This document shows positions 9,759-62,235 of a stretch of DNA of 63,585 bases, piece after piece. Each line of letters starts with the position of its first letter. The stretch's first letter is position 1. The translations under genes and the position numbers were made by a program. Below the pieces are notes generated by a model, which was given only the letters and a program-made list of their open reading frames with translations, ran no database searches and was not told the DNA's origin. The stretch comes from an uncultured Frankiaceae bacterium (lineage in GTDB: Bacteria > Actinomycetota > Actinomycetes > BP-191): positions 1 to 63,585 of the forward strand of contig CAZYXZ010000006.1 in assembly GCA_964651395.1 (NCBI GenBank). Direction: 5' to 3'.

Positions 9759-10110
9759 GTATTCGGGTTTCTGGCGTGTGAAAAGTCCGCCGCCGTCGTA
9801 CCGTGACCGCACACGGGAGAGGAGGTGGTCCGATTCATGCACGAACAACGGACGCGTGAGGTGGCTGTCCGCTAGCCGCTGGACTGCTCCGGATCCGACG
9901 GACGCCTCCGGCGTCGGGCGGAATACCGAACAGACACCGCGCCCCCGGGTGCCGGCCTTCGTCCACGCCGGCATGTGTCCTCGTGACACGACCCGGGGGT
10001 CGTCTGTGTCCGGAGGCCCCTGACGGATGTGCGCAGAAATGGTCCGTTCGTGTCATGCGCCGCGCCCACCCGCGTTCCTACTGTGGCGGTGACCCGCAAC
10101 CTGCGGGGCC

Positions 10111-24092: not shown

Positions 24093-24387
24093 TGGGCCCC
24101 CCGGGACTCGAACCCGGAACCAACGGATTAACTTGCCACTACGCCTTTCGACGCCGCCCCGTTCGGGCGTTTGTGGTCTGGACTGTCCCTTCACCGTGGC
24201 GCGGTGCGCGCTTTAGGTGCCACCCGTCCAGTCTCTACACCTTCCGAGGTTTCCCTCGGCTTGGCTCGGGATCGCCATGCCAGTCGCCCGGCGAAGGGTT
24301 CCCCGACTTTGAGTGGTGTCATCCTGGCCGTTTCCGGCCAGGCGCTCCTATTGAAGTCCGCTGCTCTGCCAGTTGAGCTAGAGGCCC
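24093..24387 (-). tRNA. tRNA-Lys(UUU), split by a group I intron between positions 34 and 35
   Basis: 5' exon 24387-24354: GGGCCTCTAGCTCAACTGGCAGAGCAGCGGACTT (34 nt). 3' exon 24131-24093: TTAATCCGTTGGTTCCGGGTTCGAGTCCCGGGGGGCCCA (39 nt). Joined they give a perfect 73-nt cloverleaf with loop CU-UUU-AA and discriminator A73. CCA is not fully encoded (CCG). Confidence 0.93.
24132..24353 (-). ncRNA. Group I self-splicing intron (IC3-like), 222 nt, no internal ORF
   Basis: P1 CUU/GAG with U.G at the 5' splice site; P2 CCUGGCCG-GAAA-CGGCCAGG; P3 CCACUC/GGGUGG; P4 UCGGG/CCCGA; P6a CCGAGG-GAAA-CCUCGG; P7 GACUG/CAGUC; core GAAGGUGUAGAGACUGGACGG; P9 GCGUC-GAAA-GGCGU; P9.0 CCAC/GUGG, then AA and terminal omega-G. 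Confidence 0.93.
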
Positions 24388-25208: not shown

Positions 25209-25281
25209 GCCCCCATCGTCTAGCGGCCTAGGACACCGCCCTTTCAAGGCGGCAGCACGGGTTCGAATCCCGTTGGGGGCA
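25209..25281 (+). tRNA. tRNA-Glu(UUC)
   Basis: GCCCCCA...CCGCC-CTTTCAA-GGCGG...GTTCGAATCC...TGGGGGCA cloverleaf. Confidence 0.97.
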
Positions 25282-25304
25282 CACAGCACGGAAGCAACAA
25301 CGTT

Positions 25305-25379
25305 GGTCCCGTAGTGCAGTCTGGAGTGCACGCCGCCCTGTCAAGGCGGAGGTCGCGGGTTCAAATCCCGTCGGGACCG
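25305..25379 (+). tRNA. tRNA-Asp(GUC)
   Basis: GGTCCCG...CCGCC-CTGTCAA-GGCGG...GTTCAAATCC...CGGGACCG. Confidence 0.97.
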
Positions 25380-25403
25380 CTGACATGCCGCAAGGCATGG
25401 CAA

Positions 25404-25480
25404 GGGCAGGTAGCTCAGTCGGTACGAGCGCGCGCCTGAAAAGCGTGAGGTCGGCGGTTCGACCCCGCCCCTGCCCACCA
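25404..25480 (+). tRNA. tRNA-Phe(GAA)
   Basis: GGGCAGG...CGCGC-CTGAAAA-GCGTG...GTTCGACCC...CCTGCCCACCA (CCA encoded). Confidence 0.97.
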
Positions 25481-41675: not shown

Positions 41676-41853
41676 GGGGTACTCCTGATCTGGGAGAGCT
41701 GTGCTGGGAGCGGAACACTTCGCCCCGCGGAGGGCGTTTCCCTCCTTGGCGGGATGCTCAGGGCGCCCGGCTGCCTGTACCGTGCAGGTAAGCCGACCGC
41801 GACCTGGCGCGGTCCGGCATCGGGTGGTTTCTTCGAATTCGGGAGGTCGAGCC

Positions 41854-42045
41854 ATGGGGCGCGGCCGGGCCAAGGCCAAGCAGACCAAGATCGCGCGCGA
41901 GCTCAAGTACTCGCCGCCGGTCGGCACCGACCTGGACCGCCTGCGCGCGGAGCTCGCCGCGGGCGACGCGCCACCCGCTCCGGTCGCGGCCGAGGACGAC
42001 GACGACCTCGAGGACGACGACGACGTCGAGGACGAGGTCGGTTAG
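41854..42045 (+). CDS. DUF3073 domain protein
   Basis: MGRGRAKAKQTKIARELKYS; acidic tail; typical purM neighbour; SD GGAGG. Confidence 0.92.
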   Translation: MGRGRAKAKQTKIARELKYSPPVGTDLDRLRAELAAGDAPPAPVAAEDDDDLEDDDDVEDEVG

Positions 42046-42072
42046 CCCACTCTGTCCTTCCGGCTAGCCCCG

Positions 42073-42906
42073 CTAGCCGGGCGGCGCGTCCTTCGCCGGG
42101 ACGTCGCCCAGGCTGGCGCCCAGGAACTGACGCCCGTCCCACTGCAGCCGGTTGTGCACGAACCGCGACGGGCAGCACGGCTGCTCGCCCGGGCGTACGG
42201 CGGCGGCGTACTCCTCGATGGTCCCGCCGGGCAGCGCGATGCGGCCGAGCCGGAGAGCGCCGCGGTGAGCGCGCAGCACCAGGGGGCCGCCCTTGCGCCA
42301 CGTGAACACGTCGTACGCGCGGTACTCCGGGTTGCCCTGCAGGCGGGTGATCGCCACGAGGCTGTCGACGCCGAAGCCGATCAGCTTCGCCCCACGGACC
42401 GTGAAGCCGAGTCCGCCGTCGGCCTGCTGCGCGGTGTAGGCCAGGTGGTAGCCCCCCGCCGCCTCGTCGAAGGTGTGCAACCGCAGCACCCACTGGCGCC
42501 CGGTGCCGGCCGCCTCGGTGCCGGCGACCCAGAGCACGCTCCCGCCGTGCAGGCGCACCTCGTCGCAGGACACGTCGAGCAGCTCGGGATAGAGCTCCTC
42601 GCAGCTGGACCCGCTGCTGATCGTGATGGCGCCGCCGGAAGTCGTCCGCTGGAAGCTCGACCCCTGCGCGGTGATCGGTGTGCCCACGGCCTTGCCCGGC
42701 GTGCTGGCCGTCACCGACGGCTTCACGGACGACGTGGCGGTGGCTGTCGCGCTCGCCGAGACGGTGGCGGTCGGCGTCGCCGTGAGGGTGGGCTCCGGCG
42801 ACTCGGTCGGGCCGAGCGTCTCTCCGCTGTCACCCGAACAGGCGGCGAGGACCAGGCCGAGCGTCAGGCCGGCGACGGCGATCCGGGGTCGGTGCGACGC
42901 GCGCAT
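42073..42906 (-). CDS. Lipoprotein, unknown function
   Basis: Lipobox VLAAC; Thr/Ser/Pro linker; four Cys in the mature domain. Confidence 0.7.
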   Translation of the reverse strand: MRASHRPRIAVAGLTLGLVLAACSGDSGETLGPTESPEPTLTATPTATVSASATATATSSVKPSVTASTPGKAVGTPITAQGSSFQRTTSGGAITISSGSSCEELYPELLDVSCDEVRLHGGSVLWVAGTEAAGTGRQWVLRLHTFDEAAGGYHLAYTAQQADGGLGFTVRGAKLIGFGVDSLVAITRLQGNPEYRAYDVFTWRKGGPLVLRAHRGALRLGRIALPGGTIEEYAAAVRPGEQPCCPSRFVHNRLQWDGRQFLGASLGDVPAKDAPPG

Positions 42907-61590: not shown

Positions 61591-62235
61591 GTGCCTCTTG
61601 CAGTCGGGTTCGACCTCGGCGTCAACTCCGCAGCCGGTTTCGCCCTCTACGCCGTCGTCTGGGCGGCCGTCTTCATCGAGTCCGGGCTGCTCATCGGCTT
61701 CTTCCTGCCGGGCGACACACTGCTCTTCGCCGCCGGCGTCGCGGCGGCGTCCGGACGGGCCAACATCGTCGTGCTCATGGCCGGCTGCGTCGTCTTCGCC
61801 ATCCTCGGCGACTCGGTCGGCTACCTGATCGGCAAGCGCGCAGGGCGGCCGCTCCTCCAACGTCGCGACGGCCGTGTGCTCAACCAGCACAACCTGAAAC
61901 GGGCCACCGACTTCTACGACCGCTACGGCAGCGCGACGATCGTCATCGCGCGCGTCGTCCCGATGGTGCGGACCTTCGCGCCGCTCATCGCCGGCTGCAC
62001 CGAGATGAACTACCGCAAGTTCCTGATGTGGAACGTCCTCGGCGGCCTCGCGTGGGGCACGATCGTCCCCTACGCCGGCTACCTCGTCGGGGAGAGCGTG
62101 CCCGGCGTCGAGAAGTACGCGCTGGCCGCCGCCGGCCTCATGGTGCTGCTGTCCCTCATCTCCCCGGTGGTGCACTACATCCGGGCCGGCAAGCAGATCG
62201 AGGAGACGACCGAGGACACCGAGCTCGTTCCCTAA
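61591..62235 (+). CDS. DedA/VTT family membrane protein
   Basis: FIESGLLIGFFLPGDTLLF, GDSVGYLIG, ARVVPMVRTFAP; TACGGT-N7-GTG. Confidence 0.93.
   Translation: MPLAVGFDLGVNSAAGFALYAVVWAAVFIESGLLIGFFLPGDTLLFAAGVAAASGRANIVVLMAGCVVFAILGDSVGYLIGKRAGRPLLQRRDGRVLNQHNLKRATDFYDRYGSATIVIARVVPMVRTFAPLIAGCTEMNYRKFLMWNVLGGLAWGTIVPYAGYLVGESVPGVEKYALAAAGLMVLLSLISPVVHYIRAGKQIEETTEDTELVP

What the first reader, a model, noticed from the sequence alone, without database searches (positions are those of the whole stretch)
24093..24387. Group I (IC3-like) intron splitting the anticodon of tRNA-Lys(UUU) in an actinobacterium
Seen: two minus-strand exons (34 and 39 nt) form an exact 73-nt tRNA with loop CU-UUU-AA once 222 nt are removed. 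The insert has P1 (CUU/GAG, U.G at the splice site), P2 to P9 with GAAA loops, P7 GACUG/CAGUC, P9.0 followed by AA and a terminal G, and a possible P10 (intron UAG with 3' exon UUA). Established: the core (GAGCCAAGC...GAAGGUGUAGAGACU.GACGG...AGUCC) closely resembles the Azoarcus tRNA-Ile and cyanobacterial tRNA-Leu(UAA) IC3 introns, and the 34/35 site and P1 match the tRNA-Leu(UAA) case. The bacterial tRNA hosts I recall are Leu, fMet, Ile, Arg, Asn and Asp. I do not recall a Lys(UUU) host or an actinobacterial example, but novelty needs checking. Inference: the gene sits at the usual core Lys/Glu-Asp-Phe locus, so it is probably the cell's only AAA decoder. Translation would then depend on ribozyme splicing, and U34 modification could only follow splicing. 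There is no homing endonuclease, so how it arrived is an open question. Standard annotation would probably report this tRNA as missing.
Basis: partly seen in the sequence, partly recalled or inferred. Interest (0 to 1): 0.92.

Follow-up and report, generated by a model that had tools for sequence, protein, structure and literature searches.

The report
Self-splicing intron inside lysine tRNA gene
A 222-base group I (self-splicing type) intron interrupts the anticodon of the lysine tRNA(UUU) gene of an uncultured actinobacterium. It is real and standard annotation misses it, but the same intron sits at the same site in more than a hundred other bacterial species and in phages, and the class was catalogued in a 2020 preprint.

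Summary
On the minus strand, 24387-24354 (34 nt) and 24131-24093 (39 nt) join into a clean tRNA-Lys(UUU). They are separated by a 222-nt insert (24353-24132) between U34 and U35.

The insert is a group I intron of the bacterial tRNA (IC3) type:
- A covariance model built only from published non-Lys tRNA introns hits it once in the window (118.8 bits, E about 4e-31).
- In 55 homologues, 94% of predicted P1-P9 pairs form and 36 of 69 pairs show compensatory changes, including the P3/P7 pseudoknot.
- The 5' splice site has the U-1·G wobble and the intron ends in G.
- Uninterrupted tRNA-Lys(UUU) genes identical to the joined exons of sister intron-bearing genes exist.

Rfam's Intron_gpI does not detect it, but it also scores known tRNA-Leu introns below threshold.

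It is not novel. A truncated species-level genome scan returned 107 clean tRNA-Lys(UUU) genes split at the same site. They come mostly from Actinomycetota (Microbacterium, Agromyces, Tsukamurella, Prauserella, Frankiales and others), and also from four other phyla and from phages. Williams' 2020 bioRxiv preprint lists the class "Lys.3Ug", and its seed is 99.6% identical to the intron of Microbacterium sp. Leaf288.

Whether this is the cell's only AAA decoder could not be tested.

The parts
24354..24387 (-). 5' exon of tRNA-Lys(UUU): acceptor, D arm, 5' anticodon stem, C32 U33 U34
   Evidence: ARAGORN -i. The joined exons best match E. coli tRNA-Lys genes.
24132..24353 (-). Group I (IC3-type) intron, 222 nt, no ORF. 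First nucleotide C at 24353, terminal (omega) G at 24132.
   Evidence: It is 76% identical to the tRNA-Leu(UAA) intron of a Bradyrhizobium plasmid and to the Gordonia phage Daredevil intron.
24093..24131 (-). 3' exon of tRNA-Lys(UUU): U35 U36 A37 A38, 3' anticodon stem, variable loop, T arm, acceptor, A73
24345..24356 (-). P1: exon CUU plus intron C (24356-24353) paired with the internal guide GGAG (24348-24345), loop AAUA. U34(-1)·G wobble at the 5' splice site.
   Evidence: Read from the sequence. 104 of 108 homologues have a 4-7 bp P1 with the U·G wobble.
24323..24342 (-). P2 hairpin CCUGGCCG-GAAA-CGGCCAGG
   Evidence: 7 of 8 pairs have compensatory changes. The GAAA loop is nearly invariant.
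24178..24317 (-). Catalytic core, P3 to P7 (contains P4, P5/P5a, P6/P6a, P8/P8a and J8/7)
   Evidence: Full-length match to model R1, built from 12 non-Lys bacterial tRNA introns: 118.8 bits, E=3.8e-31.
24229..24235 (-). P7 5' strand G-A(bulge)-GACUG, the guanosine-binding helix. It pairs with 24185-24180 and forms a pseudoknot with P3 (24316-24311 / 24225-24220).
   Evidence: 100% paired in 55 sequences. The last pair occurs as G-C, A-U, U-A and C-G.
24180..24185 (-). P7 3' strand CAGUCC
24136..24176 (-). P9 domain: P9 CCAC/GUGG enclosing P9a (CGCCC/GGGCG) and P9b (GCGUC-GAAA-GGCGU)
   Evidence: Compensatory changes in all three helices.
25209..25480 (+). Divergently oriented tRNA-Glu(UUC), tRNA-Asp(GUC) and tRNA-Phe(GAA) cluster. 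This is the conserved neighbourhood of the Lys gene.
   Evidence: The same arrangement is found next to intron-bearing Lys genes in Tsukamurella and Frankiales loci (L011, L017, L034, L035; in L077 and L103 the trio lies 2-4.4 kb away) and next to an intron-less one (L233).

Best explanation
The window carries the resident tRNA-Lys(UUU) gene of an uncultured high-GC actinobacterium, interrupted between U34 and U35 by a 222-nt ORF-less group I intron of the bacterial tRNA (IC3) family.

Inferred mechanism, taken from the family:
1. The gene is transcribed as a 295-nt precursor.
2. The exon sequence CUU pairs with the intron guide GGAG to form P1, with a U34·G wobble. The anticodon stem holds the two exons together.
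3. An exogenous guanosine bound in P7 attacks after U34.
4. The terminal G (24132) then occupies the same site, and the freed U34 3'-OH attacks after it. This joins CUU to UUAA.
5. The product is a mature 73-nt tRNA with anticodon loop CUUUUAA. Only after this can it be modified at U34/A37 and charged.

Shown here: the exons, the splice-site nucleotides, the conserved and covarying fold, homology to known self-splicing introns, and intron-less alleles identical to the joined exons of sister genes.

Inferred: splicing activity itself, and that the cell depends on it.
For: - Exons and insertion site: ARAGORN -i gives tRNA-Lys(ttt) i(35,222).
- Isotype: in 5426 E. coli genomes the best-covered matches of the joined exons are tRNA-Lys genes, with a median of 6 places per genome.
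- Group I identity: model R1, built from 12 published non-Lys seeds including Azoarcus Ile2 and Synechococcus Leu, gives a single hit at 24178-24317(-), 118.8 bits, E=3.8e-31.
- Structure under selection: on 55 homologues 94.1% of cells pair, against 32-45% when partners are slid. 36 of 69 pairs have double changes, and 0 of 500 shuffles reach any measure.
- Splice-site rules: U-1 and terminal G in 107 of 107 clean extractions, and the U·G wobble in P1 in 104 of 108 (those 107 plus the window).
- Junction proved by comparison: 119 of 120 metagenomic hits are uninterrupted tRNA-Lys(ttt) with CTTTTAA, up to 93% identical to the window's joined exons. Six are identical to the joined exons of the intron-bearing Prauserella genes L076/L098, whose introns are 91-93% identical to the window's.
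- Function is kept: the intron is found in the conserved Lys/Glu-Asp-Phe locus. Nesterenkonia alkaliphila has two copies and both are split (L027, L046). Phage tRNA arrays carry the split gene as their only Lys(UUU).
Against: - Rfam RF00028 gives no hit on the window even at E<=10. The same model scores only 45 and 36.8 bits (threshold 50) on two tRNA-Leu(UAA) introns and also misses the phage copy.
- No promoter-like site was found by the simple sigma-70 scan, which is not informative for a 71% GC actinobacterium.
- There are no transcript or splicing data.
- The rest of the genome is not available, so a second, intact tRNA-Lys(UUU) cannot be excluded.
- AAA is rare here (2 AAA against 54 AAG in six ORFs), so demand for this tRNA is low.
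Confidence: 0.93

Rival explanations
1. The split gene is a dead copy. An inert group-I-derived insertion inactivated one tRNA-Lys gene, and an intact tRNA-Lys(UUU) elsewhere in the genome does the work.
For: Only 63.5 kb of the genome can be seen, and it holds no other Lys tRNA. Rfam's model does not recognise the insert. AAA codons are rare.
Against: - All helices show compensatory substitutions across orders of Actinomycetota and other phyla, and the core is invariant. That is purifying selection on a working ribozyme.
- The exons are intact and 89-93% identical to uninterrupted genes.
- The gene occupies the canonical locus.
- Both copies are split in N. alkaliphila.
- M. smegmatis has a single tRNA-Lys-TTT gene (PMC10865867).
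Confidence: 0.03
2. The host is tRNA-Asn(GUU), with the insert one nucleotide upstream (after U33, ending in A). This is how ARAGORN labels most homologues.
For: ARAGORN -i calls 'Asn (gtt)' for most of the 119 related loci, because shifting the intron by one base also gives a 7-nt loop (CU|GUUAA).
Against: - That placement would put a Watson-Crick U-A pair at the splice site and an A at the intron's end. Placing the intron after U34 gives U·G and a terminal G in 107 of 107.
- Uninterrupted alleles of the same tRNA read CTTTTAA and are called Lys.
- The body best matches E. coli tRNA-Lys and has A73.
Confidence: 0.01
3. Origin rival. The intron-bearing gene is not an old resident. It was brought in, gene and intron together, by a phage or integrative element that targets tRNA-Lys(UUU) and carries its own split copy. 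The alternative is vertical inheritance with sporadic precise loss.
For: - Gordonia phage Daredevil carries a split tRNA-Lys(UUU) beside its integrase and is reported to integrate into tRNA-Lys-TTT without restoring it.
- At least 12 further IMG/VR contigs besides Daredevil carry the split gene.
- The distribution is patchy. Tsukamurella has it and M. smegmatis does not. Identical tRNAs exist with and without the intron.
- Two intron lineages travel with two different tRNA bodies within Microbacterium.
Against: - In the window there is no integrase, no duplicated exon fragment and no att-like repeat near the gene.
- The Lys/Glu-Asp-Phe neighbourhood is the same as for intron-less genes.
- The Daredevil intron is only 77% identical to the window's, while cellular copies from four orders are 87-93% identical.
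Confidence: 0.2

Closest known systems
'Lys.3Ug' class of bacterial tRNA group I introns (K.P. Williams, bioRxiv 2020, doi 10.1101/2020.01.27.920355; seed Mle24.Lys.3Ug)
   Same: Same host isotype, same insertion site (after loop position 3, i.e. U34), U-1 and terminal G, and an actinobacterial host. The seed is 99.6% identical to the intron of Microbacterium sp. Leaf288 (L083).
   Different: The window's intron belongs to a different sequence lineage. I call it type B: 216-232 nt, in a tRNA reading GGGCC...GGCCCA. It is about 65% identical to the type A lineage of the preprint seed (244-270 nt, long P5 extension, tRNA reading GCCCC...GGGGGCA). The preprint's table of counts by phylum is an image and could not be read.
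[quoted passage not shown]
   Same: Same site (U34|N35), same 5' exon CUU, same P1 design and same core. It is 76.5% identical to a Bradyrhizobium plasmid copy and 73% to the copy on enterobacterial plasmids.
   Different: The 3' exon starts UUAA instead of AAAA. The nucleotides 5' of the guide are AUAG, which could pair with UUA as P10. The host tRNA is class I Lys, not class II Leu.
Azoarcus pre-tRNA-Ile(CAU) IC3 intron (structurally solved ribozyme)
   Same: Same compact architecture (P2, P3-P8, P9, no P5abc), GAAA loops in L2 and L9, and the core string GAGCCAAGC...GAAGGUGUAGAGACU.GACGG...AGUCCAG. It is one of the 12 seeds of model R1 that hits the window.
   Different: It is inserted after position 36 rather than 34. 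P9 is a single hairpin, whereas the window has P9a and P9b. The P5 and P8 receptor motifs differ in sequence.
Rfam RF00028 Intron_gpI
   Same: It is the general family model for group I introns, and it recognises the sister tRNA-Leu introns at 45 and 36.8 bits.
   Different: It does not report the window's intron at all. According to Williams 2020, at the time of that study none of its 12 seeds was bacterial.

Membership tests
Group I intron | P1 helix formed by the 5' exon end and an internal guide, with a U·G wobble at the 5' splice site | tested here: met
   CUUC/GGAG with U34·G. The U·G wobble is present in 104 of 108 homologues.
Group I intron | Terminal (omega) G immediately before the 3' splice site | tested here: met
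   G at 24132. 107 of 107 homologues end in G.
Group I intron | Conserved core P3-P4-P5-P6-P7-P8 with the P3/P7 pseudoknot, supported by covariation | tested here: met
   94.1% of cells paired. P3 has 4 of 6 pairs compensatory. P7 is 100% paired and its last pair occurs in four pair types. Slid controls give 32-45%.
Group I intron | Guanosine-binding P7 with bulged A and adjacent G-C pair, and a conserved J8/7 | tested here: met
   G-A-GACU and AAGGGA are invariant or nearly so in 55 sequences. This is met by sequence only; binding was not assayed.
Group I intron | Significant match to a covariance model of the family | tested here: inconclusive
   Rfam RF00028 gives no hit at E<=10, and scores sister Leu introns only 45 and 36.8 bits, below the threshold of 50. 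Model R1, built from 12 published non-Lys bacterial tRNA intron cores, gives 118.8 bits, E=3.8e-31.
Group I intron | Self-splicing with guanosine and Mg2+ | not testable with these tools
   This needs in vitro transcription and splicing, or tRNA-seq.
Group I intron | P10 and P9.0 pairings that align the 3' splice site | tested here: inconclusive
   P10 (UAG with UUA) is possible in the window and in 60 of 108 homologues, but only 1-2 bp in the others. P9.0 has no covariation support. In tRNA introns the anticodon stem is known to align the exons (Zaug 1993, cited in PMC3984707).
IC3 subgroup (bacterial tRNA introns) | Compact form without P5abc; P2 and P9 capped by GNRA loops that dock in P8 and P5; core sequence as in the Azoarcus and Anabaena introns | tested here: met
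   The helix layout and the GAAA loops in L2 and L9b are conserved. The core matches the Azoarcus/Synechococcus-seeded model end to end. The docking contacts are inferred, not tested.
Lys.3Ug class (Williams 2020) | Intron after anticodon-loop position 3 (U34) of tRNA-Lys, with U-1 and terminal G | tested here: met
Functional intron-containing tRNA gene | Removing the intron gives exactly a known functional tRNA | tested here: met
   Uninterrupted tRNA-Lys(UUU) genes are 89-93% identical to the window's joined exons. Six are identical to the joined exons of sister intron-bearing genes.
Mobile (homing) group I intron | An intron-encoded homing endonuclease | tested here: not met
   The 222-nt intron has no ORF on its own strand. 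The only overlapping ORFs are long spurious opposite-strand frames typical of 71% GC DNA.

The most novel reading that the evidence does not exclude
Split tRNA-Lys(UUU) genes may be moved between Actinomycetota (and beyond) by phages. Phage genomes carry the intron-bearing gene, either beside an integrase that targets the host tRNA-Lys(UUU) or inside tRNA arrays. An integration that destroys the host copy could leave the phage-derived split gene as the cell's only AAA decoder.

A related possibility is that an intron in the anticodon loop breaks up the symmetric site that tyrosine integrases use as attB, and so protects this much-used integration site.
Probability: 0.12. Interest if true: 0.6.

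Novelty: new member of a known kind. Interest (0 to 1): 0.3.

Why it matters
For this window, little changes. It is one more, correctly diagnosed, member of a catalogued class.

The practical point is about annotation. Default ARAGORN and the Rfam tRNA and Intron_gpI models all miss the gene here, and the tRNAscan-SE authors state their tool was not designed to detect such introns. Genomes of Microbacterium, Agromyces, Tsukamurella, Prauserella, Nesterenkonia, Frankiales and others will therefore appear to lack tRNA-Lys(UUU). ARAGORN with introns enabled often mislabels the gene as Asn.

If the split gene is the sole UUU isoacceptor, as the single-copy state in M. smegmatis suggests for relatives, then AAA decoding in these organisms depends on ribozyme activity.

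Tried and rejected
- Rfam at gathering threshold and at E<=10 on the region gave no Intron_gpI hit. A control on sister introns showed the model is too insensitive.
- Exact-sequence look-ups of two window proteins, to identify the genome, were not on record.
- The upstream dienelactone hydrolase was tried as a synteny anchor. Its best homologues (62-69%, Acidimicrobiales MAGs) are not next to a tRNA.
- A BLAST of the joined exons against phages ranked Acinetobacter phage 'tRNA-Met' genes first. This reflects tRNA body similarity and does not decide the isotype. The E. coli comparison gave Lys.
- The simple promoter/terminator scan was uninformative.
- The MFE fold recovers only the peripheral hairpins, because the core is pseudoknotted.
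- The Asn(GUU) reading and the pseudogene reading were considered and rejected (see rivals).
I could not count tRNA-Lys genes in any whole genome.

Full report
**1. The observation**

Read on the minus strand, window 24387-24354 is GGGCCTCTAGCTCAACTGGCAGAGCAGCGGACTT and 24131-24093 is TTAATCCGTTGGTTCCGGGTTCGAGTCCCGGGGGGCCCA.
- ARAGORN run without introns finds only tRNA-Glu, Asp and Phe in the window. The Rfam tRNA model finds the same three.
- With introns allowed, ARAGORN calls tRNA-Lys(ttt) with a 222-nt intron at 34/35.
- The joined exons give a regular cloverleaf with anticodon loop CUUUUAA and A73.

**2. Is the insert a group I intron?**

Rfam's Intron_gpI (RF00028) reports nothing, even at E<=10 on a 601-nt slice. 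I ran a control. The same model scores a Bradyrhizobium plasmid tRNA-Leu(UAA) intron at 45 bits and the enterobacterial-plasmid tRNA-Leu(UAA) intron at 36.8 bits, both under its threshold of 50. It also misses the phage Daredevil copy. These sequences are 73-77% identical to the window's insert. The negative result is therefore a sensitivity problem. Williams noted that at the time of his study none of the 12 seeds of the Rfam model was bacterial.

I took 12 published non-Lys seeds from Williams' alignment: Leu, Arg, Thr, Met, fMet, Ser and Ile2, including Azoarcus and Synechococcus. I cut them to the P3-P7 core, aligned them (A2) and built model R1. R1 hits the window once, at 24178-24317(-), over its full length, at 118.8 bits and E=3.8e-31.

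**3. Structure**

I wrote P1-P9 for the window by hand and tested it on an alignment of 55 non-redundant homologues (A1).
- 94.1% of cells form standard pairs, against 32-45% when the 3' partners are slid by 1-3 columns.
- 36 of 69 pairs have changes on both sides.
- None of 500 shuffles reaches any of the five measures.
- P2, P3, P5, P5a, P6a, P8, P9, P9a and P9b all covary.
- P7 is invariant except its last pair, which occurs as G-C, A-U, U-A and C-G without a single mismatch.
- P4, P6, J8/7, the bulged A of P7 and the GAAA loops of L2 and L9b are invariant or nearly so.
- P1 with the U-1·G wobble is found in 104 of 108 genes, and the intron ends in G in 107 of 107.
- P10 (UAG with UUA) is possible here but not general. 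P9.0 is unsupported.

**4. The host tRNA and the junction**

ARAGORN labels most homologues 'Asn(gtt)' because it slides the intron by one base. Three results settle the host as Lys(UUU):
- Only the U34|U35 placement gives the U·G wobble and a terminal G.
- The best-covered matches of the joined exons in 5426 E. coli genomes are tRNA-Lys genes.
- A metagenome scan for the joined junction returned at least 120 loci, of which 119 are uninterrupted tRNA-Lys(ttt), up to 93% identical to the window's joined exons.

Six of those uninterrupted genes are identical to the joined exons of the intron-bearing Prauserella genes L076 and L098, whose introns are 91-93% identical to the window's. So the same tRNA exists with and without the intron, and the junction is CTT|TTAA.

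**5. Distribution**

I made one scan of species-representative genomes with a pattern requiring both P7 strands and G+TTAATC. From these I extracted 107 clean tRNA-Lys(UUU) genes split at 34/35 (a 108th extraction, L037, was discarded as wrong).
- Actinomycetota: Microbacterium, Agromyces, Arthrobacter, Nesterenkonia (N. alkaliphila has two copies, both split), Tsukamurella, Prauserella, Phytoactinopolyspora, Frankiales/Frankiaceae and Nocardioidaceae.
- Other phyla: Planctomycetota, Gemmatimonadota, Alphaproteobacteria and Poribacteria.

Two lineages stand out:
- Type B: 216-232 nt, in a tRNA reading GGGCC...GGCCCA. The window belongs here, and its intron is 87-93% identical to copies from four actinobacterial orders.
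- Type A: 244-270 nt, in a tRNA reading GCCCC...GGGGGCA.

The divergent Lys / Glu-Asp-Phe arrangement of the window recurs in Tsukamurella and Frankiales loci and next to an intron-less gene (L233).

**6. The organism**

The window's genome is not in the collections. GC is 71.4%. An Actinobacteria sRNA (Ms_IGR-5) scores 69 bits. A valine dehydrogenase has its best named relatives (76-77%) in Mycobacteriales and Frankiaceae MAGs. A Frankiales MAG shares about 76% DNA identity over kilobase stretches. 'Actinobacterium' is confirmed.

**7. Prior knowledge**

Williams (bioRxiv 2020) expanded the known tRNA intron settings from 4 to 21 and provides seeds Mle24.Lys.3Ug, Mpe6.Lys.4Ug and Dba165.Lys.2Ug. 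Mle24 is 99.6% identical to the intron of Microbacterium sp. Leaf288 (L083). Both a Lys(UUU) host at 34/35 and an actinobacterial example were therefore already on record.

I found no peer-reviewed paper on it in the searchable library. The tRNAscan-SE 2.0 paper says the tool was not designed to detect group I introns and attributes missing fMet/Ile2 genes to them.

**8. Mechanism and dependence**

The splicing pathway is inferred from the family, as set out in the best explanation. Dependence of the cell on splicing is plausible:
- The gene sits at the canonical locus.
- M. smegmatis has a single tRNA-Lys-TTT.
- Both copies are split in N. alkaliphila.
- Phage tRNA arrays have the split gene as their only Lys(UUU).

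It cannot be shown from 63.5 kb. AAA is rare here, 2 against 54 AAG in six ORFs. There is no endonuclease ORF and no integrase or exon duplicate nearby. How the intron arrived remains open. The options are vertical descent with precise losses, transfer of the whole gene, or reverse splicing from a tRNA-Leu(UAA) intron that shares the 5' exon CUU.

**9. Verdict**

This is a real, well-diagnosed feature and an ordinary member of a known class. The interest is modest. It lies mainly in the systematic annotation gap and in the phage copies noted in passing.

Noticed in passing
L001 2459-2770 (+), about 41820-42131 of Gordonia phage Daredevil NC_048021: There is an unannotated tRNA-Lys(UUU) split by a 238-nt group I intron at 34/35, directly beside the integrase gene (gp54). 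A 2024 mBio paper (PMC10865867) states that Daredevil integrates into tRNA-Lys-TTT without restoring it, encodes no tRNA of its own and therefore forms clear plaques. The T loop of this copy is unusual (AUCGAAA), so it may or may not work.
   Followed up: partly
IMG/VR loci L127, L130, L131, L132, L134, L136, L139, L140, L141, L143, L144, L145: Viral contigs, several above 200 kb, carry an intron-split tRNA-Lys(UUU) close to other phage tRNA genes. Where a tRNA array is held, most have Lys(CUU) but no intact Lys(UUU); L143 has an intact Lys(UUU) as well. A 2014 review (PMC3984707) stated that all phage group I introns known then lay in protein-coding genes.
   Followed up: partly
L002 2928-3226 (+), about 61823-62121 of pCTX-M3 NC_004464; about 1289 PLSDB plasmids: An unannotated tRNA-Leu(UAA) split by a 221-nt group I intron lies next to the AAA-family ATPase (annotated only as such) and aac(3)-IId resistance genes. 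It is on plasmids of E. coli, Klebsiella, Salmonella, Acinetobacter and others (Rfam Intron_gpI 36.8 bits). It may be a remnant of the organism the resistance segment came from.
   Followed up: partly
L003 2422-2712 (+), Bradyrhizobium sp. ISRA435 plasmid CP094621: A plasmid-borne tRNA-Leu(UAA) with a 204-nt group I intron. It is the closest non-Lys relative of the window's intron (76.5% identity).
   Followed up: partly
L004-L122 (genome loci): ARAGORN with introns enabled labels most split tRNA-Lys(UUU) genes as tRNA-Asn(gtt), and sometimes as SeC, Stop, Arg or Ser, because it places the intron one or more bases off.
   Followed up: yes
L027 and L046 (Nesterenkonia alkaliphila F10, two contigs): The one genome with two tRNA-Lys(UUU) genes has both interrupted by the intron.
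   Followed up: no
window 9811-10009 (+): Match to the actinobacterial small RNA Ms_IGR-5 (69 bits, above the gathering score).
   Followed up: no
window 24378-24387: [quoted passage not shown] The protein carries about 12 extra C-terminal residues compared with homologues.
   Followed up: no
phage records H34-H57 (Acinetobacter T4-like phages): Genes annotated tRNA-Met are up to 88% identical over the full length to the window's joined tRNA-Lys exons. The cause was not examined; it may be body similarity between isoacceptors or an Ile2-type tRNA.
   Followed up: no
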